Source: a virus. From it: 64,000 nt of DNA. Made by a program: the position numbers and the translations under genes. The notes beneath the pieces were generated by a model. That model was not told where the DNA came from. It searched no databases and saw only the letters and a list, made by a program, of their open reading frames with translations. Positions 33,262-56,813 of this stretch are shown here, piece after piece (the stretch's first letter is position 1; each line of letters starts with the position of its first letter). The DNA lies in the IMG/VR virus record IMGVR_UViG_3300031774_000005, positions 11,474 to 75,473 of that record. One strand, 5' to 3'.

Positions 33262-34288
33262 TTGAATACCTCCAACATTTCCCAACACAAAACCCATCAC
33301 TAATCAGTTTATCACAATGAGGGGTGTTGTAATTATTATATACAGTAAATTTAGAATGTTTGATAGTTTCACTTTTATCCCAATCCAACCATACTGAATC
33401 GGATTCAGCAAATACTCTTTCTAATTCTTCAACTACTAATTTATGCACTTGCGTTTTATCTGCTTGATTTACTAAATCAGTATAGCCCGATAATAAATCT
33501 CGATACCAAGATACCAAATATGCTCTTGCTAAATGCGTAGGATTTTCTACCATAACGGCATTATGCAAACAAGGCAACATAGGCAAATTACCAACTGTTG
33601 AAGGCACAGAAACCGAGCCTTCCATAGCCTCAATAGGGGGTGCTTCGGGGAAAACTACCTCTTTTTTCCCGCTTTTTTTGAACGGTAAAAGGCGTGGCTC
33701 AAGAGCCATTGTTAGTATTTCTTCAATATCTAATCGTAAGTCATCAATTGTTAAAGGTATGCAATACCGAGCATTTCCTTTACCATCGGAAGAGGACATA
33801 TTAACAGTATTGGGAACTCTTCTCAATCTTGTTTTCTGTCCAACTCTTTCATCTAATGAATTTTTCTTACCGACTTTTAAATCTAACAATTGTTTTATTT
33901 CTCTAAATAAGGTTTGAACATTTCTCATGTTTTTTGTTGTCTTACCAAATAAGAATAAATGAAATCCACGACCTGAAAAAAATAAAGTATGTAAATAACT
34001 ATTTTCAATAACCATTTCCATTACAACCTTAACATCTCTCCAAGCCATATCTAAATTATCTTCATGAGCATCAAAATCTAAAAAGATTCTATCAATAATT
34101 ACACTATCCTCAACAGGCATAGTTTCTGTAAAATGTTCAAAATCATAAACGGTAGTATATACATTAGTTCGGTTGTTATGAGATTTAACAAACTCAAAGT
34201 ATTCATTCTTTGTTGTCATCTTTTTTCTTTTCATTTGCGGAGCGTTTTTTACTTGACTCCCCGCCCAAACCATTCTCGGAAACTTCAT
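33248..34288 (-). CDS. Archaeo-eukaryotic primase, PriS-PriL fusion
   Basis: FLDFD, SGRGFH, RRVPNT; C-terminal LPC..H..R and C-x8-C-x3-C Fe-S ligands as in PriL. Confidence 0.85.
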   Translation of the reverse strand: MKFPRMVWAGSQVKNAPQMKRKKMTTKNEYFEFVKSHNNRTNVYTTVYDFEHFTETMPVEDSVIIDRIFLDFDAHEDNLDMAWRDVKVVMEMVIENSYLHTLFFSGRGFHLFLFGKTTKNMRNVQTLFREIKQLLDLKVGKKNSLDERVGQKTRLRRVPNTVNMSSSDGKGNARYCIPLTIDDLRLDIEEILTMALEPRLLPFKKSGKKEVVFPEAPPIEAMEGSVSVPSTVGNLPMLPCLHNAVMVENPTHLARAYLVSWYRDLLSGYTDLVNQADKTQVHKLVVEELERVFAESDSVWLDWDKSETIKHSKFTVYNNYNTPHCDKLISDGFCVGKCWRYSNANN

Positions 34289-35781: not shown

Positions 35782-36045
35782 TCACCTGTCTATTTGTAAT
35801 TGTTTAATTTCTTGAAATGACGCTCTTAATTCAGCGCACATATGGTCGTATAAAAAAACTAAATACTCTTCAAAAGTATAATCTCTAAACTGTTCATAAT
35901 CGTCTTTTTCGGATTTATAATCTAAATATAAACCGTCTCTTACCTCTTCTAATCTTTCTCTTTCTAATAATATTTCATCTTCTCTCAAAACCATTCCTCC
36001 AAACTTCTTTGTATTGTTCCCGTTCTTATTGATGTTAAATCCCAT
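35782..36045 (-). CDS. Hypothetical protein (true start probably downstream)
   Basis: ORF track. Confidence 0.45.
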   Translation of the reverse strand: MGFNINKNGNNTKKFGGMVLREDEILLERERLEEVRDGLYLDYKSEKDDYEQFRDYTFEEYLVFLYDHMCAELRASFQEIKQLQIDR

Positions 36046-36875
36046 GCCATCGCACTAAAAATAGGCTCGGCCTTCTTTACTACTTGTTCGGCATAGTGCT
36101 TGAGGTCGGGATTACAACCCTCAAACTCCTTCGCAGTTGTGCATGATACATACTCAACTACTTTTCTTTCCTTTGTTAAAGGGTGAATATAATACTCACT
36201 ATTGTTTAATACTTTCATAAAGATATATGAATCATCAAATTCAGTATCTTTACTCCAAGCATAAATAACTCCTGCGATACCCGAACCTATTGTCGGTTTT
36301 TTACCTTCAAGAGTTGTGAATTTCTTTGTATGTGTAGCGCATTTACTACATACAGAATGCTCTAATTCTAAACATTCTTTTAGATGATATTTAGCATTAC
36401 AATCCGGACATTTAACCATGAGCCTATTAGTTCTTAATCTACTTCTTTTAATAAGAGGCGTTAGTCCTAACTTTCCATCTAAAACATCGGCATACTTAGA
36501 GTAAAGAAATTGCACTATTTCTGCTTGTGACTTTTGATTTACCCACATTTTCAATACATCTGTTTGAACTTCTTTAGCCAACTTAGTTTCACTAACTCTT
36601 TTGGCAGTAAATCCGGTCATGCTGAATTTAGGCTCATCAAGCCATTCTCCATCTTCCCAAGACACCAAACCCGCATTTCTATTTCTAACAGTTCCGACAC
36701 CTAATGCTGAAAAATACTTTTCAAACTCTAATACTACGGGGTGTTCATCTAATCCCATTACATTTGGAAAGTGTTCTCTTACGCTTTCTTCTATCTCCTT
36801 GATAGCCGTCTGCGCTTTTTCAACAGAATCTATTTGAACATAAATAGAATCAGTATGTCCATAAACTACTTTCAT
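35985..36875 (-). CDS. polB: Family B DNA polymerase, C-terminal half (motif C, thumb)
   Basis: YGHTDS, LEFEK, RNRNAG, Zn insert, C-terminal PIP box QRSLEEWF. Confidence 0.88.
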   Translation of the reverse strand: MKVVYGHTDSIYVQIDSVEKAQTAIKEIEESVREHFPNVMGLDEHPVVLEFEKYFSALGVGTVRNRNAGLVSWEDGEWLDEPKFSMTGFTAKRVSETKLAKEVQTDVLKMWVNQKSQAEIVQFLYSKYADVLDGKLGLTPLIKRSRLRTNRLMVKCPDCNAKYHLKECLELEHSVCSKCATHTKKFTTLEGKKPTIGSGIAGVIYAWSKDTEFDDSYIFMKVLNNSEYYIHPLTKERKVVEYVSCTTAKEFEGCNPDLKHYAEQVVKKAEPIFSAMAWDLTSIRTGTIQRSLEEWF

Positions 36876-37704: not shown

Positions 37705-38138
37705 ACTTCTAACTCCTTATTTTTATTTTGTGCGTATTTTAGTGCTTGGATTTGAGAACTAAAAAACTTAAACAAACCATTTTGCCGAGTTCTTTTACCG
37801 CACTTTTCACAAGGCGATGATTGAAAAATACCATTTTTTAATTTATGTTCACCATGCTTAGTGGACATAATATTATATTGACCGCAACCTTCTTTTGGTG
37901 TTCTACCAGCAGGTTTTAACTTATTATCTTCTAATTGAACAGGGCATTTCCAAACCACCCAATTTCTTGAATGAATAGGAGATTGTTTTATTTCTTTCTC
38001 TAAAATATGGGAATGCCCTTCTCTAACTTCTTTATATTTTAAAAGAACGAGGGCTTCTTTTTCTGTAAAACTTAATGCTTCACTCATGGGTAATAAGTCC
38101 TTAATTAAAATATAAGTCCTTAAAGTTATACCACTCAT
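37701..38138 (-). CDS. Zn-binding hypothetical protein
   Basis: WKCP..GCG..CEKCG. Confidence 0.55.
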   Translation of the reverse strand: MSGITLRTYILIKDLLPMSEALSFTEKEALVLLKYKEVREGHSHILEKEIKQSPIHSRNWVVWKCPVQLEDNKLKPAGRTPKEGCGQYNIMSTKHGEHKLKNGIFQSSPCEKCGKRTRQNGLFKFFSSQIQALKYAQNKNKELEV

Positions 38139-39790
38139 ATTTCCATCTCCTTCGCCTTAAATGCGGCTAATCTAATAGCCTCTCTTGCACTTGCCGTTAT
38201 AGAAGCCGCTAAATTAACATTAGCCCAACCAAATCCTTGAAAGGCAATAATTCCGTAAAATGAAGCCATTAAACGCTTTACTGCCATTTGATTATTATGC
38301 CATTTTTGATACTCGCCACTATCATTAGAGGCTTTCATTCTTTTCTTATAGTCATTTCTTAACTCTTTTAATTCTAATACTGCTCTTGGTAATAGTCCTA
38401 ATTCATCTGTTTTAAAATACAACATATGTTTCTTTTCAACGGGGCTAAAATCTCTTGGTGTTAGAATATTAACTGCAAATTCTGTTGGTTCTTCACTAAT
38501 GGTTTCCCAAGATATATTTCTTGCTATCATCATTGAAGGATATAGACCTGCAAAATCAAAAGCCGCAACATTAAGATGTAATCCTTGAGTTTGTTCACTT
38601 AAAGGGTCATATATCATAGCCCCTTCATAAGTTTCTCTTTTCTCTACTTTACTTCCTGTCTTGCATTTCCACCAAGCATTTCTCATAAAGTAAATAGAAC
38701 CCATGTGAGAAGCGTAGAAACAAGCATCAAATGGTGCTTTTAGTAATCTTTGTAGTGATAATATTGCTTCACTACAATAGTTTGATTCATCTATCTCGAC
38801 TATCAACTTTACATCTTGTATAGCATAGTCAAGATAAGTTTGAGTATCTTCTAACCAAGCCCTGCGATAAAATTCATTTGTATCGGGAAACTTCTCCGAG
38901 ACAAGTTTCTTCTTGTTTAGAACTGTTTCACCAATATAATCAAGAGACAAAGAAGGTAATGTTCCTCTTTGTGAATCATTCCATTGTCTTTCAAATGCTA
39001 AATCTAAAGATAAAGTAATTCTTCCATTAATAGGTTGTTCAATAGGGCTAAAACCCTTTTCACCATATGCAAAGGAAAAACTATCTTTCTTTTTCTTTAT
39101 ACCTTTAATGTGTCCTGTTGGCGACATTATTTGTGGATTAAGACCAAGAGCGCAGGTTCTTTCTAATAACTTAGGTATATCTGCAAAATGACCGAACCAT
39201 GCAATTAACATATCGGGGTCTTTTACAACCATTGTTGTCATAAAGTTTTCAAGCATGTCTTTTTCATTAGTGAATATTTTAGCATTCCCAAGAGGATAAG
39301 TGTGCATAATTTTACGCATTGCCTTTTCAGGAAACCATACCCATTGATGATACTTCTCTTCATAATTATCATACACTACAATAGTAGTAATACAATCGTG
39401 ATATTCTCCGCCTTGTTGCCATTCCATATCCCAATACCATTTACGCATTTTATACTCCGGCATTTCTTTTACTTCATCAACTGCATATCTAAAGTGAAAA
39501 GGCACATCAGCCTCATAGGTTTTCTTGAACATATCTTTAGCCTTTCTAATATCAAAAGAAGTATCAACTACAACTTTCTTTAACGGCTCATTATCAATAT
39601 TAACCCAATCACCACGAATATACTCAAAGTCTCTATCAATATACTTTGATGCCTTATACTTGGAAGGTTCTTTCTCATCTTCTTTAACATAAAAATAAGG
39701 TTTAACTTCCACCATTTCAAACTTCTTTTCACCGTTCTCTCTCCAAGATTTATAGATTCTTTTACCATCATTCATCTTACTTATTATCAT
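38135..39790 (-). CDS. polB: Family B DNA polymerase, N-terminal half (exonuclease, motifs A and B)
   Basis: WDME (ExoI), YAIQD (ExoIII), DFAGLYPS (A), KRLMASFYG (B). Confidence 0.9.
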   Translation of the reverse strand: MIISKMNDGKRIYKSWRENGEKKFEMVEVKPYFYVKEDEKEPSKYKASKYIDRDFEYIRGDWVNIDNEPLKKVVVDTSFDIRKAKDMFKKTYEADVPFHFRYAVDEVKEMPEYKMRKWYWDMEWQQGGEYHDCITTIVVYDNYEEKYHQWVWFPEKAMRKIMHTYPLGNAKIFTNEKDMLENFMTTMVVKDPDMLIAWFGHFADIPKLLERTCALGLNPQIMSPTGHIKGIKKKKDSFSFAYGEKGFSPIEQPINGRITLSLDLAFERQWNDSQRGTLPSLSLDYIGETVLNKKKLVSEKFPDTNEFYRRAWLEDTQTYLDYAIQDVKLIVEIDESNYCSEAILSLQRLLKAPFDACFYASHMGSIYFMRNAWWKCKTGSKVEKRETYEGAMIYDPLSEQTQGLHLNVAAFDFAGLYPSMMIARNISWETISEEPTEFAVNILTPRDFSPVEKKHMLYFKTDELGLLPRAVLELKELRNDYKKRMKASNDSGEYQKWHNNQMAVKRLMASFYGIIAFQGFGWANVNLAASITASAREAIRLAAFKAKEMEI

Positions 39791-45606: not shown

Positions 45607-45985
45607 TTACTTTTATTCCTAAGTATTCGCATTTGTATCTAAGAAAATTTAGCCCATCTAAGATTATTCCTTTGATGGTATTTTCTGTTTCCGAAGCGTC
45701 TCCTGCAAAGATAAACGCTAAACTTGTTCCTTGATAAGTATTCCAAGCAACCGCTTGCTTCTCATCTATTGGGTCAAAAAATACTGCCATTTCCGAGTAT
45801 TTCTTAATCTGTTGAAGATGAATAACTACTCCCTTAATCAACAGTTCCACTTCTTCTTCTTTCAAATCCCCAAATACTACAAATGTAAAACTCGTAGCCG
45901 TTCCATGACTTTCTATCCATTCTTGAATATGAAGGTCATTGAACATAATAATCATTCCTTCATGTATTCCATGTTTGACGGCCAA
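45590..45985 (-). CDS. Hypothetical protein
   Basis: ORF track. Confidence 0.5.
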   Translation of the reverse strand: MAVKHGIHEGMIIMFNDLHIQEWIESHGTATSFTFVVFGDLKEEEVELLIKGVVIHLQQIKKYSEMAVFFDPIDEKQAVAWNTYQGTSLAFIFAGDASETENTIKGIILDGLNFLRYKCEYLGIKVSENYV

Positions 45986-46401
45986 TATCCATTAGGTGCA
46001 GTATTTGTTTCTAACCAAAAGAAATGTGCAGCAGTTATTCGACTATCGCCCCTGCTTATAGCATTTTCTTCTGCGTTGGCTATTAAGTTGCATAAAGCCG
46101 TTTCAACCCATTCACCCACGAAATACCTTGCTTGATTAGAAACTTGTAAATCTGTATTTTCCTTAAACAGTTTTGTTATATTCACCTTTGTTTTTGGTTT
46201 ATGTTTTGGTATTTGTGGTTTCTCCGGAATAACAATTGCATTATCTTTGATATAAGGACAATACTTCTGTAATACTAATTTAGGTCTGCCTTGCTCATGT
46301 AATATATTTTTAAGATGAGCATAACCTTCTTTATCAATTTTAATACATCTATAAGTTATGGTATCAATAATTGTCATTTCTCCTGCTTGAATCATAATCA
46401 T
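45952..46401 (-). CDS. Histone-fold protein with an N-terminal beta domain
   Basis: ITKLFKENTDLQVSNQARYFVGEWVETALCNLIANAEENAISRGDSRITAAH aligns by eye with the archaeal histone fold. Confidence 0.7.
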   Translation of the reverse strand: MIMIQAGEMTIIDTITYRCIKIDKEGYAHLKNILHEQGRPKLVLQKYCPYIKDNAIVIPEKPQIPKHKPKTKVNITKLFKENTDLQVSNQARYFVGEWVETALCNLIANAEENAISRGDSRITAAHFFWLETNTAPNGYWPSNMEYMKE

Positions 46402-46787
46402 TCCTCTTCCATTGGTTCTAACGCCTGTTGTAATACTGCTTTAATTAAGCCAATATCATCATTTCCATTCTCTATAAAATTAAGAGCAGTTAGTATGATG
46501 TGCTTATGTCTTTGGTCGTCAAGAGCGTATTTATCATTCTCAAGCATACCTAAAGTTTGAGCAATCTTCTTTTTGGCATCTTTTCTTTGATAGTTTGTTT
46601 CGCCTTGTTGATGTAAAAGAATAAATCTTCTTTGATATAAACCAAGAAGATGAACATATTGAGTTCTTATTCTTCTCATGATATTCCTAATTTCACGATT
46701 AGTTTGGTTCATTGATAAATCACTTATCTTTATACTTCTACCAAATATATCTGTCATGTATTTAGTATTCCATGATGCACCTTTCAT
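46398..46787 (-). CDS. Hypothetical protein
   Basis: Coupled ORF. Confidence 0.5.
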   Translation of the reverse strand: MKGASWNTKYMTDIFGRSIKISDLSMNQTNREIRNIMRRIRTQYVHLLGLYQRRFILLHQQGETNYQRKDAKKKIAQTLGMLENDKYALDDQRHKHIILTALNFIENGNDDIGLIKAVLQQALEPMEEE

Positions 46788-48319
46788 TCTAATCTCTCCA
46801 CATCTTCTAAGGTATTAATATCCGCAACAAACTTATCATCTCTAATTCTAACACATCTTGGGAATCTTAAGCCTAAGTTGTCCTTTTCATCTCTTGAAAC
46901 TAAATCAGCCTTAACTTCTAAAACTACAACAGGTGAAACAAAGAACTGCCCATTCTCAAATTTCTCAACATTTCTTCTTAGCGTATTTGTTAGTGTGATT
47001 AAATCCTCATCGGAAAAACCACTACCACACCAACCAACGCTTTGATAACCATTGTCGGACTTTACTCCTAATTCAAATGTGCCGAATACATTTGCTCTTT
47101 TACCTTCTCCATACTTAGTAGATAATATAACTACATCAAGATTAATTTGTGGTGGTTTGTATTTAGCCCAACCAACACTTCTTTTCCCTGCTTCATAAGC
47201 CATTGAAGAATCTTTGACGATAATACCTTCAAAACCATCATTAATTGCTTGATGATAAAAAGCCATAATATCGCCTTCTGTTATTCGGTGCGCTTGATTC
47301 GGTAAATCTTTCATCTTCTCAAGCCTTTCATTGTATGGTAAATCCATAATAGTTTCATCGTTTAGCATAAGACAATCAAAGATAACCCATTCAACCTTTA
47401 CCTTTTCTGCCGCTTCTAAATGATTCTTAGAATGAACTCTTGTAGCCATTAGTTTATGTGGTGCAGGTGTTCCATCATCTTTTATTGGATATATTTCACC
47501 ATCAAGTATTGCGTTCTTAATATCATACTTTGCACATAATAAAACAATATCGGGGAATTGAACTGTTACCAATTTACCCTTACGATTAAAAATCATTACC
47601 TTGCCATCTTCAATATGAATTTGATACCTATTACCATCATACTTGTAATCAACAACAAAGTTAGTTGGCCACTTATTCATAGGCACTTCTTTTGCTAACA
47701 TAGGTGCTACAAACTTTCCGTGTGTTAAATTACATGGAGGTTCTATTCCTCTTTCATAGGCAGAACAAACTACTTCAATAGAATTAAAGTTCAAGTGTTT
47801 CTTAACCTCTTTAACTTTCTTCTTGTAGTAATGAGCCATAATTTTCGTGACTGTTCCTCTATTGATACCGTTTCTTGGTGTTCTTAGAAGATACCTAATG
47901 AACCATCTTCGGCCATTAGCAGACATACCGACTAAAGCCGTTTCTACATTTGTAAAAACATCGGAATCAATTTTACCACAATTAAATTCCAATATTAGTT
48001 TAGCACTTAGTAAAGGCATACCGTCTTTTATTTCTGTTTCTGCTGAAACATCAAGATAATATATCGCATCTCCTAAATCATTATGAGCCGCTAACAGTCC
48101 ATCTATTTCACTTTCAAATACATCAAATATCTTCGCTAACCATTTCTTAGCCTTTGCTAAACCTAAGTTATTAGCAGTAAGGTTATCTTTATCTAAAATA
48201 GATAATACTAATCCTTTATTTTCAAAATTCTCAAGAGCGTTTCCTATCATTTTTATCTGTTGCGTTGGTGTTAGAGTATCGCTCGCTTCTAATAACCTTG
48301 CCATTCGTTCCCATGTCAT
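46784..48319 (-). CDS. lig: ATP-dependent DNA ligase
   Basis: KYDG, ILDGE, IFDCL, EGIIVK, WAKYK, LRFPR. Confidence 0.95.
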   Translation of the reverse strand: MTWERMARLLEASDTLTPTQQIKMIGNALENFENKGLVLSILDKDNLTANNLGLAKAKKWLAKIFDVFESEIDGLLAAHNDLGDAIYYLDVSAETEIKDGMPLLSAKLILEFNCGKIDSDVFTNVETALVGMSANGRRWFIRYLLRTPRNGINRGTVTKIMAHYYKKKVKEVKKHLNFNSIEVVCSAYERGIEPPCNLTHGKFVAPMLAKEVPMNKWPTNFVVDYKYDGNRYQIHIEDGKVMIFNRKGKLVTVQFPDIVLLCAKYDIKNAILDGEIYPIKDDGTPAPHKLMATRVHSKNHLEAAEKVKVEWVIFDCLMLNDETIMDLPYNERLEKMKDLPNQAHRITEGDIMAFYHQAINDGFEGIIVKDSSMAYEAGKRSVGWAKYKPPQINLDVVILSTKYGEGKRANVFGTFELGVKSDNGYQSVGWCGSGFSDEDLITLTNTLRRNVEKFENGQFFVSPVVVLEVKADLVSRDEKDNLGLRFPRCVRIRDDKFVADINTLEDVERLE

Positions 48320-48449
48320 CTATAATCACTTCCATATTTTCATTTATATTTTTTATCAGTTCTTTTAACAGGCTACTGATTTTCCCGTCATGCTTTTCAG
48401 CATATGTCCACATAGCATTTGCTAAGTAAATCCATTCATTCTTCTTCAT
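48231..48449 (-). CDS. Hypothetical protein
   Basis: ORF track; start at MKKNEW. Confidence 0.4.
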   Translation of the reverse strand: MKKNEWIYLANAMWTYAEKHDGKISSLLKELIKNINENMEVIIDDMGTNGKVIRSERYSNTNATDKNDRKRS

Positions 48450-48801
48450 TTGATTCTTCCCCATCTAATCTTTGAAGCAATCTCAAGAAGTTAGCCATGA
48501 TTTGTTGTATAGTATGTATTTCTTCTTGGTTGCCTCTTTCAATAAAGCGGTGCATCATATGAATAAAAGTTGCTTGAGTAATAGCAGGTGCTAATCTTGC
48601 TAAATCGTTATGGGAATAAATCTCCCAATAACAAACAAAAGAGGCTCTTGCTAAGTAATTACCTTTAGCGATACCTGCATATCCCATATTAAAATGTTCT
48701 AATTCAACATCATTAAGTGCTTTCTTTTGTTTCTTAGCCCATTCATCAAACTTCTTATCATTTGTTGTTATTAAAAATAATTTATTGTTCATCTTCTTCA
48801 A
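48436..48801 (-). CDS. Hypothetical protein
   Basis: ORF track. Confidence 0.5.
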   Translation of the reverse strand: MKKMNNKLFLITTNDKKFDEWAKKQKKALNDVELEHFNMGYAGIAKGNYLARASFVCYWEIYSHNDLARLAPAITQATFIHMMHRFIERGNQEEIHTIQQIMANFLRLLQRLDGEESNEEE

Positions 48802-49054
48802 CTCCTTTATCCATAAAATCTCTTAATGTTTTGTAAAATCTACTGTATGCTAATTCAACATGAAGTCTTTGAACTCTACTTCCTGCCCCTTTTCTTGGTG
48901 GAACAGTCATTTGACTTTCCAAATACTGTGCAAATAAATCCATTAAATCTGCTGAACAGTTAATGAATAAATCTACTGAACCATGTCCATACTGTCTATC
49001 TTCGTTTGCTTTCTTCAAACTCTTTTTGGCTTGAACTACGCTTATTCTTTTCAT
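48782..49054 (-). CDS. Divergent histone-fold protein
   Basis: ISVVQAKKSLKK..RQYGHGSVDLF..long helix..SRVQRLHVELAY fits alpha1-L1-alpha2-L2-alpha3 spacing. Confidence 0.5.
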   Translation of the reverse strand: MKRISVVQAKKSLKKANEDRQYGHGSVDLFINCSADLMDLFAQYLESQMTVPPRKGAGSRVQRLHVELAYSRFYKTLRDFMDKGVEEDEQ

Positions 49055-49260
49055 TCTATCTCTCTCCCTAATATTTGTAATAATAATTTTGCTTCTTCCA
49101 TGTTCACCCGAACACCTTTCATTGTTGGTAAATTATCTTTAAACCAGCGAATATCCAAGACTTCAATATTCCTGTATTTACCTCTTTTAATTTTACATTC
49201 CATGCTATCATCACGGATAATAGTTCCAATAACTTCTAATCCATCTGTCATGTTAGCCAC
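49051..49260 (-). CDS. PC4/YdbC-like ssDNA-binding protein
   Basis: YRNIEVLDIRWF..PTMKGVRV. Confidence 0.8.
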   Translation of the reverse strand: MANMTDGLEVIGTIIRDDSMECKIKRGKYRNIEVLDIRWFKDNLPTMKGVRVNMEEAKLLLQILGREIE

Positions 49261-49667
49261 CCCTGTTTGAATTTATCTAAATCCTGTCTTGATGTAAAGT
49301 ATCTTGGTGTATCTAATTCATCAATACGATTAACTATCCAACATGCGCCTCCTAATGAAGAAACTTGAACCACTTCATATTGACCGCTATTTACTTCTAT
49401 AACTTCTTTAGTATTTATTTTAGGAACTAATCCCCACTTAAGAGTTAATTCTTGAGCAACTTCATGTATGTTTTCAGCAACATATTTTATGATATGCGCT
49501 CTTTGAATAGGTATTTTAGGAGCAACTTCTATTGCTAATTCACCTGTCATTTTACAGACATTACATTTGTTTCCTAAACAAATAGGACACTTTACTCTTG
49601 CTTTATGCGGAGCAGGTAAATTAACTGTTATTGCTTTCTTTTTCATTTTCTCATCACCTTTATGCAC
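49248..49667 (-). CDS. Zn-finger protein
   Basis: CPICLG.KCNVCKMTG. Confidence 0.55.
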   Translation of the reverse strand: MHKGDEKMKKKAITVNLPAPHKARVKCPICLGNKCNVCKMTGELAIEVAPKIPIQRAHIIKYVAENIHEVAQELTLKWGLVPKINTKEVIEVNSGQYEVVQVSSLGGACWIVNRIDELDTPRYFTSRQDLDKFKQGWLT

Positions 49668-50050: not shown

Positions 50051-51565
50051 TTAAGCCTCCGGCAATAATACTGCTACATCTGTTGAGTAGAATAAAGATG
50101 CTATTGATAATGCCGCCAAGAAACTATTCTTAACTACCTTATATGGGTCAAAGACTCCTGCTTCTTCTAAGTTTTCTATCTTATTAGTAAGAGCATTGTA
50201 GCCCATACCGGAAGAAACATCAATTTCTAATTTTGATGAAACATCACCGCTATTTTCAATCAATGTTAGCATTGGTTGTTTTAAAGAATATGTGAACCAC
50301 TTCGGTAAAGTATCGTCTTTTGCTAATTTAGCATATAATGTTCCTCCACCAACTACAATTCCTTCTTCTAATGCGGCCTTTGTTGCATGTAAAGCATCAT
50401 CAAGTCTTTCTTTAGTTTCTCGCATTTCAATAGATGAAGAAGCACCAATTCTAATTGTGGCAACTCCCCCGCTAAGTTTTGCTATTCTGTTTTTGATTCT
50501 TGCTACTTGATGTCCTTTAGTATCTTTAGCCTGTTTCTTAAGCGTTTCAATTCTACTTAGAATCTCATATTCTTTTTCTTCATTTGTTCCAATAAAGGTA
50601 GTTGATTCTTTGGTAATAGATACTTTCTTACAAGTTCCTAAATCTAAAAGAGTGAAAACTTTAGGGTCGTCTTTGCTTTCTTCAACAAAAACTCTTCCAC
50701 CTAATGCACAAGCCATATCTCCTAATTCATTTATTTGTTCATCACCAAAATTAGGTGAAAGGACAACTGCACATTGAATAGTCTTTTGTAAAAGATTCAT
50801 AACTAAATTATTCATGGCTGAACCATCAAACCCTTTACAGAAAATAACAAGAGGCCGGTTGTTTGCTGAACTAAATTCTAATAGTGGCATAATATCGCTA
50901 AACTTTCTAATAGAAACATTAGACATAAACACCAATGGATTATCAAACTCAACACGGCCATTTTCAGTATTGCACATCAAATGACTTAGATAGCCTTCAT
51001 TGATTTCCATACCTTTTCTAATCTCAATTTCTGTATTATAATTATTAGATTCTTCAACGGTGATAATACCGTCTCTTCCTACTTCATCAATTGCTCCTTT
51101 AATTAGACTACCAAGATGCCTGTCATTGTTTGCCGCTATTGTAGCAACATTAAGAACATCGTCGTTTTCTACTTCAACAACATAAGTATCTAAATAATTA
51201 ATCATCGTATCTCTTAAATCGCTAATTAAGTTATTAAAATCATGAATTGACATATCTTCTCCAAAATCAACTAAATTATTACAAAAAGCCTGTGCTAAAA
51301 TACAAGCGGTAGTTGTTCCATCGCCCGAATTATCTTGTGCTTTACTTGCTAAGTTTTGAACTAATTGTATTCCCATTTGAACATACGGGTCTTCATGAGA
51401 AATATACTTTGTAATGGTAACTCCGTCATTAATAATAATGGGTGGATTACCTTGCAGTATAACTGTTTTGGCTTGTGGGCCAAGTGTAGGTTTTACTGTA
51501 TTAGCAACTAAATTAATTCCTTCTAACAATTTCTTTTTAACTTCTATTCTATCATTCAGTATCAT
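50051..51565 (-). CDS. groEL: Group I chaperonin (GroEL-like)
   Basis: TLGP, NDGVT, GDGTTT, ITVEES, GYLS, RIAKLSGGVATIRIGA, EEGIVVGGG. Confidence 0.92.
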   Translation of the reverse strand: MILNDRIEVKKKLLEGINLVANTVKPTLGPQAKTVILQGNPPIIINDGVTITKYISHEDPYVQMGIQLVQNLASKAQDNSGDGTTTACILAQAFCNNLVDFGEDMSIHDFNNLISDLRDTMINYLDTYVVEVENDDVLNVATIAANNDRHLGSLIKGAIDEVGRDGIITVEESNNYNTEIEIRKGMEINEGYLSHLMCNTENGRVEFDNPLVFMSNVSIRKFSDIMPLLEFSSANNRPLVIFCKGFDGSAMNNLVMNLLQKTIQCAVVLSPNFGDEQINELGDMACALGGRVFVEESKDDPKVFTLLDLGTCKKVSITKESTTFIGTNEEKEYEILSRIETLKKQAKDTKGHQVARIKNRIAKLSGGVATIRIGASSSIEMRETKERLDDALHATKAALEEGIVVGGGTLYAKLAKDDTLPKWFTYSLKQPMLTLIENSGDVSSKLEIDVSSGMGYNALTNKIENLEEAGVFDPYKVVKNSFLAALSIASLFYSTDVAVLLPEA

Positions 51566-51719
51566 TCTTTCCTCTCCTATATTGTGTTTCTTTAATTCCT
51601 TCTTGTAGTAAATAAACAAGAATCTCATTTGTTGTCATATTTAGGTCGTCTCTCATCTTCATTATGAAACTCCATTGTTGTTCCGTAAATGGTAATGAAT
51701 TAATATTTATTTCCTTCAT
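51552..51719 (-). CDS. Ribbon-helix-helix-like protein (55 aa; not in the ORF track)
   Basis: MKEININSLPFTEQQWSFIMKMRDDLNMTTNEILVYLLQEGI; sits between groES and groEL. Confidence 0.45.
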   Translation of the reverse strand: MKEININSLPFTEQQWSFIMKMRDDLNMTTNEILVYLLQEGIKETQYRRGKNDTE

Positions 51720-51964: not shown

Positions 51965-52233
51965 TACTCTTCCTCCGATGGTAAAGCAACCCAACCTCTT
52001 GCAGTTTCGGAAACCCATACTGATGTATGAGTTTTGTAAAACTGTTTCAGTCTTTTGTCTCTTTCTGTTTCTTTAGACCAAGTAATGCCTCTATCTTCCC
52101 TTCTAATGTTTTTATCATTAGGGTGTCTTTCTTGATGCCTTCTTTGTCTTTCAAGAAGAGTTTTAGGTTCTTCATCTACAATGACTTCTCCATATTCTCT
52201 TTTCTTTTGTTTTCTTTTATTATACATATTCAT
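51964..52233 (-). CDS. Basic hypothetical protein
   Basis: Coupled ORF. Confidence 0.5.
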   Translation of the reverse strand: MNMYNKRKQKKREYGEVIVDEEPKTLLERQRRHQERHPNDKNIRREDRGITWSKETERDKRLKQFYKTHTSVWVSETARGWVALPSEEE

Positions 52234-52814
52234 TCCTCTTCATTTCCATATTGATTCCATGTTTGGGTTCTTTCTAATTCGTGATTAACATAAATATCTA
52301 ATTGTTTAGGTTTATCGTTTTCCCAAAAACCATAGTGGCCTTTGCCACCTAAAACATAAGCAGTTTCCATCAATGGTTGCCAAATAGATACTGTGCTAAT
52401 ATCTGTTCCACTAAAATAAGCACTACCGAATGGGTGTGTATGAATCCAACATCTAACAGGCATTTTCATTCCTTTAGGAACAGAACCAAAATCAACAAAA
52501 CCGGATGAACCGGATGAAACATAACAATCATTCTTTGCATCAATAACAACTTGAACTTCTAAAGCCGGTAGTATGTTAGTTGAAGCATGCCAAATAGCAT
52601 CATGAAATTCTATATTATGAAATGCTACCATCTCTAATAATGCTTTATCATCATGTGGAACACCATCTAATCTTTCTTTAACAATATCTTCATATGCTGA
52701 CATTACATGATATTCAGCCTCCACTCTTGCTATTTCTATTTCTTCTAAATATTTATCATATCCATCATCATCACTATTAATTTCTTTGAAATAGTGGTCT
52801 TTTATTTTACCCAT
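52230..52814 (-). CDS. JAB/MPN+ (JAMM) metalloprotease
   Basis: LEVQV...WIHTHPFGSAYFSGTD (E..HxH-x7-S-x2-D). Confidence 0.9.
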   Translation of the reverse strand: MGKIKDHYFKEINSDDDGYDKYLEEIEIARVEAEYHVMSAYEDIVKERLDGVPHDDKALLEMVAFHNIEFHDAIWHASTNILPALEVQVVIDAKNDCYVSSGSSGFVDFGSVPKGMKMPVRCWIHTHPFGSAYFSGTDISTVSIWQPLMETAYVLGGKGHYGFWENDKPKQLDIYVNHELERTQTWNQYGNEEE

Positions 52815-54524: not shown

Positions 54525-54773
54525 TCACTCCTTGCTTTCTTCTTCTAATCTAACTATATTGAGTGCCATATATAATTCCATAAAGAAATTAGTTAGCCAA
54601 TCATCTTTCTTTAGAATAGTCATATCATGTTCTAAATCATTTTGATACATTTGATTTATTTCCTTTACTATTCTATCTTTATTCTCTAAGAAAGCCATTT
54701 CTATTTTATGTCTGCTCTCTTTTAGTTTTTTAAATTCTTCTTCTGTTCCTTTCCACATTGTTATTCCTCTCAT
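54525..54773 (-). CDS. Hypothetical protein
   Basis: Coupled ORF. Confidence 0.5.
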   Translation of the reverse strand: MRGITMWKGTEEEFKKLKESRHKIEMAFLENKDRIVKEINQMYQNDLEHDMTILKKDDWLTNFFMELYMALNIVRLEEESKE

Positions 54774-55618
54774 AATTCTTTTCCTTTTAGTTCTTCAACT
54801 AATTCAACACCGATTAAATTCAGTATTGCTTTTGTTTGTTTCCAAACAATCCATCTTGAGAATCCTGTTTTCTCACATATTCTCTCTTTAGTAATATTAT
54901 CCTTAACATATACATTAGCCGTTATCCAAATAATAGAGGCGTAGTATGACCTACCTTTATTGAAGGTAGAGTTTAAGACTACTGTTTCAAAATACTCTAA
55001 CACATGAATACATTGACTTCTAAAAGTTATGTCATCTGTTATTTTTATTAATGTCTGTATCAAAGCATACTGCGGATTAATCGGTTTGTAATTAATACTA
55101 TTTCTATGAAACTGATTAATCTTCCTTACTAATCTTTTAACTGATTTGACATTAGGGCTAAATTCAGCGCATACATCTTTGATAGTGTGCGGAGTTCCGT
55201 TCTCCTTTAGTGCATAATAAACAACTGCGGTTGCTCTTGCTTCGTATTGGCTTCTTCCAAATAGGCTTCTATTTAGACAATCAATGTATAGTTTTTCAAC
55301 TCTCGCTTGGAGAGAACTATTAGGTGCTACATTTGCTAATACCATATTACAGAATCTAATTCCATTTTGGATATGCTTAGGTAAAACACTATTCATTCCA
55401 TACTTATTATACTTGAAAGAACCTTTACCCGTTATTACAGAACCTAATTTATTTCTGTCCGGTGAATGAACTAACTCACCTGTTGAATCAAGAATATGAA
55501 CTGTCTCTTCAAACATTTCTGTTATCAAAACAAGTCCACAGTCTTTACAAACTGTTTCGCCAAGCCGTTCATTAAACTCATTGTTTTGGCTTCTGCATTC
55601 TTCGCAAATTAATTTCAT
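54770..55618 (-). CDS. tfb: Transcription factor IIB (TFB) homologue
   Basis: Zn ribbon CEEC..GETVCKDCGLV; two cyclin repeats (GRS..A.A.VYYA; GRS..ASIIW). Confidence 0.85.
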   Translation of the reverse strand: MKLICEECRSQNNEFNERLGETVCKDCGLVLITEMFEETVHILDSTGELVHSPDRNKLGSVITGKGSFKYNKYGMNSVLPKHIQNGIRFCNMVLANVAPNSSLQARVEKLYIDCLNRSLFGRSQYEARATAVVYYALKENGTPHTIKDVCAEFSPNVKSVKRLVRKINQFHRNSINYKPINPQYALIQTLIKITDDITFRSQCIHVLEYFETVVLNSTFNKGRSYYASIIWITANVYVKDNITKERICEKTGFSRWIVWKQTKAILNLIGVELVEELKGKEL

Positions 55619-56813
55619 TCCCCTCAATCCTATATTTATTCGCATCGTGTATCATATATCCCTTGATAGTTGATACCATTTTTACTGTTATTAAATCATT
55701 TAGAAGTGCTAATGCTCTACCTGCGAATTGGTCGCCTAATGGTGAATTATTCGCCACATTGTCTATACAAATCGGCCCACTCCAAAACTTGAAATCTTCT
55801 TCATTACTCTCATTGATATTGAAATACTTTGTTCCCTCAACTACACTAATGTTCCCAAGCATCCAATTGCTTTCTTCAAATTCAGCAACAACATCTTTCT
55901 TTGGTTGCCAAATATAAGTTGATACCATTTGTATTCCTGTCTTATATCTGTTATTAGTTAGTTTCCAATCGTAGCCTCTACCTCTAACATACATTGTAGT
56001 TAATATTCCTTCTTCATCATAAACTGCATGAATGCGACCATCATGTTGATTGCATAAATCCTTTACTAATTGTAATGCTCTTTCTTCAACCATATCTTGA
56101 GTTCTGTTCTGCATTAGAAATGCTCTCATAACTTTCTTTTCAGCAGTTGTTGGTTCTCTACCCAATAGTTTCTTGAATAAATATTTTGGGCCAAGTTTTT
56201 TCCATGAACCTCTTGATTTACCAAGATGATAAAAATTACAAAAAGTATCTAATTGTCTTGGGGTTATTTCTCCCCAAATACCGTCGCTTATTTCCATAGC
56301 GAGCATATTATCATCTATTTGCACAACATTTAGTCTAACTTCTATTTTTTCAAAGTCATGAATAAAATGATATGGCGCACGATTCTCTAAACAATATCTA
56401 ACATTTTCCGGTAGTGATAATGTTGAATACAAACTACTCAACAATACTTCCGGATTATCTTCAAAACAAGATTTGTAGGTTAGTCTTGCTAATGCTGAAC
56501 ATATGGTAGCAAGGCTATATGATTTACCATTTAGTTGATACCTAATACCTTCTCGGCTTAATACAACAGGGCAGGTTTTAACCATAACAACATGATTAAA
56601 TTTGTAACCAAATCCACTACTATATCTATTTCTTGGGGAAATAATACCTCTCCAAAAATCTTCTAATCCTGCATGAACAGGGTCTTTCTTTCCTCTTTGA
56701 ATACCAACAGACCTTTGATTTCCAAAATCATGTGTTTCACATCTTATTGTTGTCGTATCTGTTATCCTTGAATCGTCAGGTCTTGCTATATTTAAATTAC
56801 ATTCTCTACTCAT
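55578..56813 (-). CDS. Hypothetical 411-aa protein; candidate divergent E2-like C-terminal domain
   Basis: GPICIDNVANNSP resembles the E2 active-site G-x-ICLD..SP; no HPN motif. The function call is weak. Confidence 0.35.
   Translation of the reverse strand: MSRECNLNIARPDDSRITDTTTIRCETHDFGNQRSVGIQRGKKDPVHAGLEDFWRGIISPRNRYSSGFGYKFNHVVMVKTCPVVLSREGIRYQLNGKSYSLATICSALARLTYKSCFEDNPEVLLSSLYSTLSLPENVRYCLENRAPYHFIHDFEKIEVRLNVVQIDDNMLAMEISDGIWGEITPRQLDTFCNFYHLGKSRGSWKKLGPKYLFKKLLGREPTTAEKKVMRAFLMQNRTQDMVEERALQLVKDLCNQHDGRIHAVYDEEGILTTMYVRGRGYDWKLTNNRYKTGIQMVSTYIWQPKKDVVAEFEESNWMLGNISVVEGTKYFNINESNEEDFKFWSGPICIDNVANNSPLGDQFAGRALALLNDLITVKMVSTIKGYMIHDANKYRIEGNEINLRRMQKPKQ

What the first reader, a model, noticed from the sequence alone, without database searches (positions are those of the whole stretch)
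45952..49054. Two divergent viral histone-fold proteins flanking the ligase
Seen: one histone fold fused to an N-terminal beta domain via a Pro/Lys linker (45952-46401), and a stand-alone 90-aa candidate (48782-49054). Both replace the canonical RKT..D with SR[IV]..xH. Inference: a heterodimer that compacts viral DNA, poisons host chromatin or acts as an NC2/TAF-like transcription cofactor with the viral TFB and PC4. Histones in tailed archaeal viruses are little characterised.
Basis: partly seen in the sequence, partly recalled or inferred. Interest (0 to 1): 0.7.

Follow-up and report, generated by a model that had tools for sequence, protein, structure and literature searches.

The report
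Two histone-fold proteins in a magrovirus
A tailed virus of marine group II archaea carries two small histone-fold proteins in its replication gene block: one belongs to a published class with an extra beta-barrel domain, and the other is a previously unrecognised stand-alone histone fold that only structure prediction reveals. Whether the two pair with each other could not be tested.

Summary
Both ORFs are real, conserved minus-strand genes in the replicative module of a group-B-like magrovirus.

**P1 (45952-46401, 149 aa)**
- It has a KOW/SH3-like beta-barrel, a basic Pro/Lys linker, and an acidic histone fold of the NF-YB/NC2beta/H2B type with an alphaC helix.
- This architecture was published in 2025 as "viral KOW histone-fold proteins" (Liu et al., hLife), from computation only.

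**P2 (48782-49054, 90 aa)**
- It has no sequence similarity to any histone family.
- A confident AlphaFold2 model (pLDDT 91) superposes on complete histone folds (H4, CENP-X, CENP-W, H3) at 2.0-2.8 A over about 71-75 residues.
- It is basic, with the charge on alpha1/L1 and L2.
- All sources call it hypothetical.

**Shared features and context**
- Both families carry a conserved R-[IVL]-x-x-x-H motif where canonical histones have T-[IV]-x-x-x-D.
- All 99 related loci holding both near-full genes keep them in one fixed gene order around the ligase.
- One clade keeps P2 but lacks P1.

**The heterodimer idea**
- It stays open. The complex predictor was unavailable, and a crude co-evolution test gave no support.

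**Most likely role**
- Dimeric dsDNA-binding architectural factors of the viral replication/transcription module.

Interest is moderate.

The parts
45952..46401 (-). P1: 149-aa KOW-like barrel + linker + histone fold protein (the VKHFP class). The ATG at 46401 overlaps the stop of the upstream gene. Relatives start two codons later, at 46395.
46231..46395 (-). P1 residues 3-57: SH3-like/KOW-like beta-barrel.
   Evidence: Strands are from the model. VIA matches Spt5 KOW5 (Z 5.9, rmsd 2.6, 54 aligned), KOW6-7 5ohq (Z 5.6) and M. jannaschii Spt5 (Z 5.4). There is no Pfam KOW hit.
46180..46230 (-). P1 residues 58-74: basic Pro/Lys linker (family median charge +3).
45955..46179 (-). P1 residues 75-149: acidic histone fold with alphaC, of the NF-YB/NC2beta/CHRAC/Dpb4/H2B type.
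   Evidence: 28 of 32 family members hit PF00808 (best E 1.5e-5). The PDB profile search gives HmvA at 7.8e-4 and NF-YB at 3e-3. Foldseek top hits are all histone folds. VIA gives Z 6.0-6.4 with 70 residues aligned over 73-149. Median charge is -5.
48782..49054 (-). P2: 90-aa basic stand-alone histone-fold protein, invisible to sequence searches. Its start overlaps the stop of the PC4-like gene.
49051..49260 (-). PC4-like 69-aa protein directly upstream of P2. It is kept next to P2 in all related loci that extend far enough upstream, including the clade that lacks P1.
   Evidence: PF02229 E 4e-4, 20.2 bits, below the 25-bit cut-off.
46784..48319 (-). ATP-dependent DNA ligase lying between the two histone-fold genes.
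   Evidence: PF01068 E 2.2e-39
46398..46787 (-). g129: small gene directly upstream of P1 with overlapping stop/start. It is present in only part of the related loci and is absent, together with P1, in the P1-less clade.
48436..48801 (-). g121: small gene overlapping the end of P2, conserved in all related loci.

Best explanation
The window is a group-B-like magrovirus, a tailed virus of marine group II archaea (Poseidoniales). P1 and P2 are two core genes of its conserved replicative gene block. The order is chaperonin > Zn-finger protein > PC4-like > P2 > g121 > (g77) > ligase > (g129) > P1 > ... > RFC.

Shown or predicted with good support:
- P1 is a KOW/SH3-like beta-barrel tethered by a basic Pro/Lys linker to an acidic histone fold of the NF-YB/NC2beta/H2B type with an alphaC helix.
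- P2 is a basic minimal histone fold of the H4/CENP-X/CENP-W type, with its positive charge on alpha1/L1 and L2. Those are the elements that touch DNA in histone-fold dimers.

Inferred:
- Histone folds are stable only as handshake dimers, so both proteins should work as dimers that bind and bend about 30 bp of dsDNA without sequence specificity.
- They would serve as architectural or accessory factors for replication and/or transcription of the viral genome, in a host that has no conventional nucleosomal histones.
- The barrel of P1 would add a second contact, to nucleic acid or to a protein partner.
- An acidic-P1/basic-P2 heterodimer is the most economical arrangement (my odds about 0.35-0.4). 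P2 must also be able to act without P1, most simply as a homodimer, because one clade has lost P1 or never had it.
For: Fold of P1:
- Family-wide PF00808 hits in 28/32 members.
- PDB profile hits to archaeal histone HmvA and to NF-YB, including the Trp that follows alpha3.
- A model with pLDDT 87 and a 29-residue alpha2.
- Foldseek and VIA lists dominated by histone folds. The H2B/NF-YB-class matches (ORP1, NC2beta, NF-YB3, CHRAC, Dpb4) cover 73-149 at rmsd 2.7-3.0.

Fold of P2:
- A model with pLDDT 91 and pTM 0.73.
- Foldseek PDB top 50 nearly all histone folds: TAF12 TM 0.73 at rmsd 2.8, and Asgard HHoB TM 0.73.
- A Foldseek-independent VIA search gives CENP-X at Z 7.2, rmsd 2.4, 72 of 75 residues.
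- The VIA second look gives H4 at Z 7.0, rmsd 2.0, 71 of 74 residues, plus CENP-W and H3.
- In BFVD, named viral H2A-, H2B- and H3-like proteins are among the best-ranked matches (ranks 4, 5, 7, 15, 28; the top three rows are unnamed), with weak E-values.

Shared signature: R-[IVL]-x-x-x-[H>D] at the L2/alpha3 junction of both families. D, the canonical histone residue, is the only alternative to H.

Charge pattern: the P1 histone fold has median charge -5 with a +3 linker. P2 has median charge +4, with +4 on alpha1/L1 and +3 on L2.

Context:
- Split PolB, RFC, ligase, chaperonin, RNR, an ERCC4 nuclease and a TFB-type Zn ribbon fit magroviruses as described in PMC5434244.
- All 99 related loci that hold both near-full genes, 59 of them unique pairs, keep P1 1.96-3.4 kb downstream of P2 in the same gene order.

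Host: Poseidoniales are reported to have only an atypical acidic four-fold histone-like protein (PMC13260811).
Against: - There is no experiment and no complex model. Dimerisation and DNA binding are inferred from the fold alone.
- P2 has no sequence-level link to histones: Pfam finds none in 22 members, the PDB profile search finds none at E<=10, and hhalign against P1 gives probability 0.1%. Its assignment rests on one predicted monomer model. Z values near 7 are within the range that small helical models can reach by common arrangement (notes).
- The P2 geometry departs from the canon: alpha2 is 22 residues, L2 about 15 and alpha3 27.
- The P1 histone fold is acidic and lacks the canonical L2 Arg-Lys-Thr and the Asp, so DNA binding may be weak or depend on the linker.
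- Against an obligate heterodimer: the clade L082/L083/L132/L133 and L134 has P2 but no P1, either at the syntenic site or anywhere in an 83%-complete record. The partial mirror-tree correlation between the P1 histone fold and P2 is -0.13. The synteny is a property of the whole block, not of the pair.
Confidence: 0.55

Rival explanations
1. Two independent histone-fold homodimers with separate jobs. P2 would be a general basic DNA-bending protein of the replication block, linked to the PC4-like ssDNA binder. P1 would be a homodimer with two KOW-like barrels that recruits another factor.
For: - A clade keeps P2, the PC4-like gene and the rest of the block but has no P1.
- There is no excess co-evolution between the P1 histone fold and P2.
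- P2 is always translationally coupled to the PC4-like gene, not to P1.
- Archaeal histones commonly homodimerise (PMC11390915).
Against: - P1 never occurs without P2 in any locus with enough flank.
- The P1 fold class (H2B/NF-YB with alphaC) is known only from heterodimers (established knowledge).
- The net charges are opposite, which fits a pair.
Confidence: 0.35
2. An NC2/NF-Y/TAF-like transcription cofactor. A P1-P2 dimer would sit on promoter DNA with TBP and the viral TFB-like protein, and the KOW-like barrel would contact RNA polymerase or Spt4/5 surfaces.
For: - The best structural class for P1 includes NC2beta (1jfi_B, Z 6.3) and NF-YB.
- The barrel resembles Spt5 KOW domains.
- A TFB-type Zn ribbon ORF (54770-55645, E 4e-6) and a PC4-like ORF lie in the same arm.
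- Liu et al. also propose a gene-regulation role for VKHFPs.
Against: - Z differences among NC2beta, NF-YB, CHRAC, Dpb4 and ORP1 are under 1, so they are tied.
- P1 ends at alphaC and I saw no equivalent of the further C-terminal helix that NC2beta uses to contact TBP (that detail is from memory of the NC2-TBP-DNA structure, not re-examined here; model boundaries).
- The TFB and PC4 hits are both below the Pfam cut-offs.
- The genes sit among replisome genes, not next to the TFB-like gene.
Confidence: 0.15
3. A replisome or repair accessory pair, like Dpb3-Dpb4/POLE3-POLE4 on a family-B polymerase or like MHF1-MHF2 (CENP-S/X) with a Hef/FANCM-type enzyme. The dimer would tether the machinery to dsDNA or branched DNA.
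For: - The genes are embedded between RFC, ligase and split PolB.
- P1 matches Dpb4 (5y27_A, Z 6.0) and CHRAC.
- P2's best matches are CENP-X/MHF2 (Z 7.1-7.2).
- The virus encodes an ERCC4/XPF-type nuclease with HhH (32572-33300).
Against: - The structural matches are tied with many other histone-fold classes.
- No contact with the polymerase or nuclease was tested.
- Gene proximity in a block with fixed order is weak evidence.
Confidence: 0.15
4. P2 is not a histone at all but an unrelated small three-helix protein whose predicted monomer happens to resemble the open histone-fold shape. In that case only P1 is a histone-fold protein.
For: - No sequence or profile link to any histone family.
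- Z is only about 7, and some non-histone helical hairpins (Tim9/10, complex IV subunits) also appear in the list.
- Helix lengths are atypical.
Against: - Three structure comparisons on the one P2 model, only one of them independent of Foldseek's ranking, put complete histone folds on top, with 70-75 of about 75 residues aligned at 2.0-2.8 A.
- Positive charge falls on the DNA-contacting elements.
- P2 shares the R-[IV]-x-x-x-H/D motif with P1 at the homologous place.
Confidence: 0.15
5. Host-chromatin poison: the viral proteins heterodimerise with host histones and disrupt host chromatin.
For: The only support is the general idea that histone folds can mix.
Against: - Poseidoniales are reported to carry only an acidic four-fold histone-like protein that may not bind DNA, and most Thermoplasmatota have no histones (PMC13260811).
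- Pattern scans of 185,579 species' genomes found no relatives of P1 or P2.
Confidence: 0.05

Closest known systems
Viral KOW histone-fold proteins (VKHFP/VKH), Liu et al., hLife 2025 (PMC13681535; bioRxiv 10.1101/2024.12.06.627149)
   Same: P1 has the defining layout: a small KOW-like beta-barrel joined by a long loop to a histone fold. It comes from IMG/VR Caudoviricetes contigs. The same solved structure, Spt5 KOW6-7 (5OHQ), is among the matches both here and in the paper.
   Different: The paper gives a monomer model only. It names no host or virus group, no partner and no gene context. Here the family is placed in magroviruses as a near-universal gene of the replicative block. Its histone fold is typed as NF-YB/H2B-like with alphaC, and a second histone-fold gene is found beside it. 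Sequence identity to the published members could not be checked because no supplement is held.
NF-YB / NC2beta (Dr1) / CHRAC-14 / Dpb4 / H2B class of histone folds
   Same: The P1 histone fold shares alpha1-L1-alpha2-L2-alpha3 plus an alphaC helix and a conserved Trp just after alpha3. The profile aligns to NF-YB through alphaC. VIA gives Z 6.0-6.4 with 70 residues aligned.
   Different: The L2/alpha3 signature is S-R-I-x-x-x-H instead of R-K-T-I-x-x-x-D. P1 has an N-terminal barrel that none of these proteins has. I saw no equivalent of NC2beta's further C-terminal TBP-contacting helix (that detail recalled from the NC2-TBP-DNA structure, not checked here). The partner is unknown.
Archaeal nucleosomal histones (HMfB, HmvA, HPhA)
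   Same: The best sequence-profile hit of the P1 family is HmvA (8bdk, E 7.8e-4). HPhA and HTkC superpose at rmsd 1.5-2.2.
   Different: Archaeal histones are basic singlets with the RKT...D signature. The P1 fold is acidic, fused to a barrel and carries alphaC. P2 is basic but has no sequence similarity to them.
CENP-X/MHF2, CENP-W and H4 (minimal histone folds)
   Same: P2 residues 1-81 cover the whole fold of these proteins: Z 7.0-7.2, rmsd 2.0-2.6, 71-75 residues aligned.
   Different: Sequence identity is 7-13% with no profile signal. P2 has a longer L2 (about 15 residues), a longer alpha3 and an acidic tail. Those proteins are eukaryotic, kinetochore or repair factors.
'Phage histones' of Schwab et al. 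2024 (alpha3-truncated fold + C-terminal tetramerisation helix; PMC11390915)
   Same: They are histone-fold proteins of tailed prokaryotic viruses that also lack the canonical RxT...D motif.
   Different: Those have a truncated alpha3 and a tetramerising C-terminal helix, and are predicted to bridge DNA. P1 and P2 have a full alpha3 (short in the P1 monomer model) and different extra parts.

Membership tests
Histone fold (P1) | Three helices alpha1-L1-alpha2-L2-alpha3 with a long central helix of about 27-29 residues | tested here: met
   The model has helices 75-82 and 89-117 (29 residues), a short 124-126 turn, then alphaC at 142-148. alpha3 is only a short turn in the monomer model.
Histone fold (P1) | Sequence-profile match to a histone family (PF00808 / PF00125) | tested here: inconclusive
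   The window protein itself has only DUF1931 at E 0.15. However, 28 of 32 family members match PF00808 (best 1.5e-5) and 10 match PF00125. The family profile hits HmvA at 7.8e-4 and NF-YB at 3e-3 in PDB.
Histone fold (P1) | Structural superposition on solved histone folds | tested here: met
   The Foldseek PDB top hits are almost all histone folds, with probability 0.89-1.00. VIA gives Z 5-6.4 at rmsd 1.5-3.0.
Histone fold (P1 and P2) | Canonical L2/alpha3 signature R-K-T-[IV]-x-x-x-D | tested here: not met
   Both carry S/C-R-[IVL]-x-x-x-H. D replaces H in 4/59 (P1) and 1/59 (P2), and T/S replaces R in 9/59 P1 sequences. Other accepted histone-fold families also lack this signature.
Histone fold (P1 and P2) | Handshake dimer formation | not testable with these tools
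Histone fold (P1 and P2) | Binding of dsDNA | not testable with these tools
   There is only a charge pattern: P2 has +4 on alpha1/L1 and +3 on L2, while the P1 fold has -5 with a +3 linker.
Histone fold (P2) | Three-helix histone-fold topology | tested here: met
   The model has helices 6-16, 26-47 and 63-89, with pLDDT 91. It covers whole H4, CENP-X and CENP-W folds at rmsd 2.0-2.6. It departs from the canon with a 22-residue alpha2, a long L2 and a long alpha3.
Histone fold (P2) | Sequence-profile match to a histone family | tested here: not met
   No Pfam family is shared by the 22 members. The PDB profile search finds nothing at E<=10. hhalign against the P1 family gives probability 0.1%. 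None of the 27 database relatives carries a Pfam domain.
Viral KOW histone-fold proteins (VKHFP) | KOW-like beta-barrel joined by a long loop to a histone fold, encoded by Caudoviricetes | tested here: met
   with the definition taken.
Viral KOW histone-fold proteins (VKHFP) | Sequence relatedness to the published cluster members | not testable with these tools
   No sequences or supplements of the paper are held.
KOW domain (PF00467) | KOW sequence motif | tested here: not met
   No Pfam KOW hit at E<=1 for P1, and none among the family members at E<=0.1.
KOW domain (PF00467) | SH3-like five-stranded barrel superposing on Spt5/NusG KOW | tested here: inconclusive
   Spt5 KOW5 gives Z 5.9, KOW6-7 gives Z 5.6 and MjSpt5 gives Z 5.4. 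Tudor, PWWP and other SH3-like barrels score within 1 Z unit.
NC2 (Dr1/DRAP1) | H2B-like subunit with alphaC plus a further C-terminal helix that contacts TBP | tested here: inconclusive
   alphaC is present (helix 142-148) and the protein ends at residue 149. NC2beta 1jfi_B aligns over P1 73-149.
Magroviruses (Magrovirales) | Tailed-virus genome of about 65-100 kb with a near-complete archaeal-type replisome, a chaperonin and two ligases; group B/B1 with RNR and split PolB | tested here: met
   Split PolB, RFC, ligase, Cpn60/TCP1, RNR and nucleases were found. The record is 75.5 kb and 80% complete. Related contigs are 92-97 kb. The description is from PMC5434244. No phylogeny was made.

The most novel reading that the evidence does not exclude
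P1 and P2 form a virus-specific asymmetric histone pair: an acidic H2B/NF-YB-like subunit carrying a KOW-like barrel, plus a basic H4/CENP-X-like subunit. The pair would coat or organise magrovirus DNA, or clamp the viral replisome to it, in a host lineage that lacks nucleosomal histones. That would be an independent, viral invention of a two-histone system in tailed archaeal viruses.
Probability: 0.3. Interest if true: 0.7.

Novelty: new member of a known kind. Interest (0 to 1): 0.45.

Why it matters
Virus-encoded histones are known mainly from giant viruses of eukaryotes. For tailed viruses of archaea and bacteria there are only recent computational surveys.

- This locus ties the published KOW + histone-fold class to magroviruses, which are globally abundant viruses of marine group II archaea. 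There it is a near-universal gene of the replisome block.
- The same block hides a second histone-fold gene that HMM-based surveys cannot see.
- The presumed host is reported to lack conventional histones, so these proteins most likely act on the virus's own DNA or machinery.
- The two genes are small and easy to express. Whether tailed archaeal viruses assemble their own histone dimer can therefore be tested directly.

Tried and rejected

- ESM Atlas look-ups for P2 and for the P1 barrel: no usable hits.
- tblastn of P1 against GenBank phage records: no match.
- PF00808 search of the window's own record: no match, because P1 itself scores too low for that model.
- PHROGs: nothing for P1 or P2.
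- No supplementary files of the VKHFP paper are held.

**Searches for a sequence bridge or more relatives**
- A profile search with the P2 alignment, looking for a bridge to annotated histones, found 27 relatives. All are unnamed and without Pfam domains.
- hhalign of the P2 family against the P1 family gave probability 0.1%. The only aligned patch is at alpha1/L1.
- Single-protein scans of viral contigs with P0091, P0106 and P0108 found nothing.
- Pattern scans of 185,579 species' genomes for P1 and P2 relatives found none. The patterns are narrow, so this does not show absence.

**Tests that gave no clear answer**
- A partial mirror-tree on 50 loci, controlling for ligase + RFC + g280 distances, gave P1 fold vs P2 = -0.13. 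This is a crude test on non-independent distances. It gives no support for co-evolution but is not strong evidence against binding.
- RNA-library contigs: one 223-nt contig identical over 48757-48979 comes from an oligo-dT marine run, and a few contigs lie over g129 and the ligase. These are contigs only, and DNA carry-over is possible, so they are no evidence of expression level.

**An idea considered and dropped**
- A zinc site in the P1 barrel (C19, C48, H29, H35): the two His are not conserved and one member has Ser at position 48.

Full report
**1. What is there**

The finding spans two minus-strand ORFs:
- P1 at 45952-46401 (149 aa).
- P2 at 48782-49054 (90 aa).

The whole arm from about 30 kb to 64 kb is coded on the minus strand, with matching GC and AT skew. 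Genes are tightly packed and often overlap by a few bases.

The local order in the direction of transcription is: chaperonin (50051-51628), a 65-aa gene, a 139-aa Zn-finger protein, a PC4-like 69-aa protein, P2, g121, g77, ATP-dependent DNA ligase (46784-48319), g129, P1, g131, g135, g280, g86, RFC small subunit.

The P2 start overlaps the stop of the PC4-like gene. The P1 start overlaps the stop of g129.

**2. Which virus**

The window lies in an IMG/VR virus record of 75,473 bp, estimated to be 80% complete. It encodes:
- a split family-B DNA polymerase;
- RFC and a replicative-module ligase;
- a Cpn60/TCP-1 chaperonin and a ribonucleotide reductase;
- a PD-(D/E)XK nuclease and an ERCC4-HhH nuclease;
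- a TFB-type Zn-ribbon protein.

This is the gene set that Philosof et al. describe for magroviruses. Split DNAP marks group B1, RNR marks group B, and the chaperonin sits inside the replicative cluster (PMC5434244). Related contigs are 92-97 kb. I made no phylogeny, so 'group-B-like' is an assignment by gene content.

**3. P1**

*Family and sequence evidence*
- P1 has 64 database clusters at 90% identity, all 96-158 aa and at least 48% identical. Several are named 'histone H3/H4' by JGI or carry PF00808.
- The window protein itself only grazes DUF1931, a histone-fold family (E 0.15).
- 28 of 32 aligned relatives match PF00808 (best 1.5e-5) and 10 match PF00125.
- The family profile hits the archaeal histone HmvA (E 7.8e-4) and plant NF-YB (3e-3) among solved structures. 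The NF-YB alignment runs on through the Trp after alpha3 and into alphaC.

*Model and structural matches*
- The AlphaFold2 model (pLDDT 87) has a beta domain at residues 9-57, a low-confidence linker, alpha1 at 75-82, a 29-residue alpha2 at 89-117, a short alpha3 turn and a terminal helix at 142-148.
- Foldseek's top PDB hits are histone folds (H2A, HmvA, HBb, CHRAC), with probabilities mostly 0.89-1.00.
- A Foldseek-independent VIA search puts ORP1, NC2beta, NF-YB3, CHRAC and Dpb4 on top. Each covers residues 73-149 with 70 aligned residues at rmsd 2.7-3.0 (Z 6.0-6.4).
- For residues 2-60 the VIA search matches Spt5 KOW5, KOW6-7 and M. jannaschii Spt5 (Z 5.4-5.9). Tudor, PWWP and other SH3-like barrels score close behind.
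- No KOW sequence motif is detected.

P1 is therefore an SH3-like (KOW-like) barrel, a basic Pro/Lys linker, and an H2B/NF-YB-class histone fold with alphaC.

**4. P1 is a published kind**

Liu et al. mined IMG/VR and described 'viral KOW histone-fold proteins' (hLife 2025, PMC13681535; bioRxiv 10.1101/2024.12.06.627149).
- They define these as a histone fold joined by a long loop to a small KOW domain.
- They report structural similarity to NusG and to Spt5 KOW6 (5OHQ).
- They call the combination new.

P1 fits that definition, and 5OHQ is among my own matches. I could not compare sequences because no supplement is held. I put the odds that P1 belongs to that cluster at about 0.85.

The paper shows a monomer model only. 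It gives no host, virus group, partner or gene context. The magrovirus papers held in the library do not mention histones. Nor does the 2022 review of viral histones mention phages or archaeal viruses.

**5. P2**

*Sequence evidence*
- A full phmmer pass over 1.84 billion representatives found only 22 relatives.
- A later profile search found 27, all unnamed and without Pfam domains.
- No histone signal exists at sequence level in Pfam, in the PDB profile search, or in hhalign against P1.

*Model and structural matches*
- The AlphaFold2 model built on 22 sequences is confident (pLDDT 91, pTM 0.73). It has helices at 6-16, 26-47 and 63-89.
- Foldseek PDB: nearly all of the top 50 are histone folds. 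TAF12 gives TM 0.73 at rmsd 2.8, and Asgard HHoB gives TM 0.73.
- VIA against 48,161 representative chains: CENP-X gives Z 7.2 at rmsd 2.4 over 72 of 75 residues, followed by NF-YB3, H3, CENP-W, TAF9/12 and H4. A few unrelated helical hairpins also appear.
- VIA second look: MHF2, CENP-W, H4 (rmsd 2.0 over 71 of 74 residues) and H3.
- BFVD: named viral H2A-, H2B- and H3-like proteins rank 4, 5, 7, 15 and 28 (the top three rows are unnamed), with weak E-values.

The Z values are modest and the tools warn that small helical models reach such values easily. Even so, the matches cover the entire histone fold and are consistent across the three comparisons, all made on one model. Deviations from the canon are a 22-residue alpha2, an L2 of about 15 residues and a 27-residue alpha3 with an acidic tail. 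I put the odds that P2 is a true histone fold at about 0.75.

**6. Shared motif and charge**

I took 59 unique P1/P2 pairs from related loci.

*Conservation around the L2/alpha3 junction*
- In P1, position 121 is R in 48 and T/S in 9. Position 122 is always I or L. Position 126 is H in 55 and D in 4.
- In P2, N17, R20, G56, G58 and R60 are invariant, and position 65 is H in 58 and D in 1.
- Among more distant P2 relatives in alignment A3, D or N also appears at that place.
- The HMMER alignment to HmvA puts P1 I122 on the canonical Ile, R121 on the Thr and H126 on the Asp.

The only alternative to H is the canonical D, and some P1 members have the canonical T/S. This is a small sequence-level argument that the position is homologous.

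*Charge*
- The P1 fold is acidic (median -5, pI 5.0), preceded by a +3 linker.
- P2 is basic (median +4, pI 9.4), with +4 on alpha1/L1 and +3 on L2, while alpha2 and alpha3 are acidic.
- This is the pattern expected of a DNA-binding ridge.

**7. Do they pair?**

*In favour*
- Histone folds need a partner.
- P1's fold class is known only from heterodimers (established knowledge).
- The net charges are opposite.
- P1 never occurs without P2. Every P1-seeded locus with at least 3.5 kb of upstream sequence has P2 1.96-3.4 kb upstream. All 49 P2-seeded loci have P1 downstream.

*Against, or neutral*
- The whole block from the chaperonin to RFC has an almost fixed order in all these loci, so the synteny is not specific to the pair.
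- A clade with two diverged members lacks P1. The members are L082/L083/L132/L133 and L134, whose P2 proteins are 69% identical. They keep the PC4-like gene, P2, g121, g77 and the ligase, but the ligase is followed directly by g131. P1 and g129 are missing. A profile search of the whole 77.5-kb, 83%-complete record finds no P1.
- A partial mirror-tree controlling for ligase, RFC and g280 distances gives -0.13 for P1 fold versus P2. This is a crude test.

The complex predictor was unavailable. I therefore give the heterodimer about 0.35-0.4. P2 must in any case be able to work without P1.

**8. Function**

No tool here tests function. I favour dimeric, non-specific dsDNA binding in the service of viral replication and/or transcription, for these reasons:
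- the fold itself;
- the charge pattern of P2;
- the basic linker and second domain of P1;
- the fixed place of both genes inside the replisome block;
- the host's reported lack of conventional histones. Poseidoniales have only an acidic four-fold histone-like protein that may not bind DNA (PMC13260811).

More specific readings are compatible with the fold matches, but those matches are tied within 1 Z unit. These readings are:
- an NC2/NF-Y-like cofactor working with the TFB-like and PC4-like proteins;
- a Dpb3/Dpb4-like polymerase accessory;
- an MHF-like partner of the ERCC4 nuclease.

Poisoning of host chromatin is the least likely reading.

**9. Verdict**

- P1 is a new member of a class published in 2025.
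- P2 is an unrecognised, sequence-cryptic histone-fold family.
- The new elements are the co-conservation of the two genes in magroviruses and the existence of a P1-less clade.
- Nothing here is experimentally shown.

Complex prediction and the look-up of encoding contigs.

Noticed in passing
window 49248-49667 (-): The 139-aa protein between the chaperonin and the PC4-like gene has two Cys knuckles (CPICLGNK and CNVCKMTG) that look like the DnaJ-type CxxCxGxG zinc finger. It is present in all related loci that extend far enough upstream. In a crude partial mirror-tree its distances correlated best with the P1 histone fold (0.53), which I cannot explain.
   Followed up: partly
L082 8731-10625; L134 6365-8431 (also L083, L132, L133): A magrovirus clade keeps P2 and the whole block, but the ligase is followed directly by the g131 homologue. 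P1 and g129 are both missing, and no P1 is found anywhere in the 77.5-kb record.
   Followed up: yes
window 46390-46401 (-): The P1 start reads ATGATTATGATT, a 6-base duplication of the start (Met-Ile twice). The window protein therefore has two more N-terminal residues than every relative, and either ATG could be used.
   Followed up: partly
window 30000-64000 (-), e.g. 46398-46787, 48436-48801, 52230-52814: 15 of 40 minus-strand genes end with two or more acidic residues in their last four (…MEEE, …NEEE, …NEEE). The purine-rich GAGG/GGAG ribosome-binding site of the next, overlapping gene lies in those codons. Relatives of P2 and genes in L082 show the same EE/EEE ends.
   Followed up: partly
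window 35985-36875 and 38135-39790 (-): The family-B DNA polymerase is split into two ORFs about 1.3 kb apart with small ORFs between them, as described for magrovirus group B1.
   Followed up: no
window 32572-33300 (-): A 242-aa ERCC4 nuclease with a C-terminal double helix-hairpin-helix (XPF/Hef/Mus81 type) lies in the replication arm.
   Followed up: no
P0074, P0076 and P0094-P0101 (relatives of P2): Some P2 relatives are 153-174 aa. At least P0074 and P0076, whose sequences I read, carry a C-terminal extension rich in charged residues (E, K, R, D) that looks like a coiled coil, again ending in EEE. This may be a multimerisation arm.
   Followed up: no
window 48757-48979: One 223-nt contig from an oligo-dT marine RNA library is identical to this stretch, which covers most of P2 and the start of g121. 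This is only a weak hint that the region is transcribed.
   Followed up: partly
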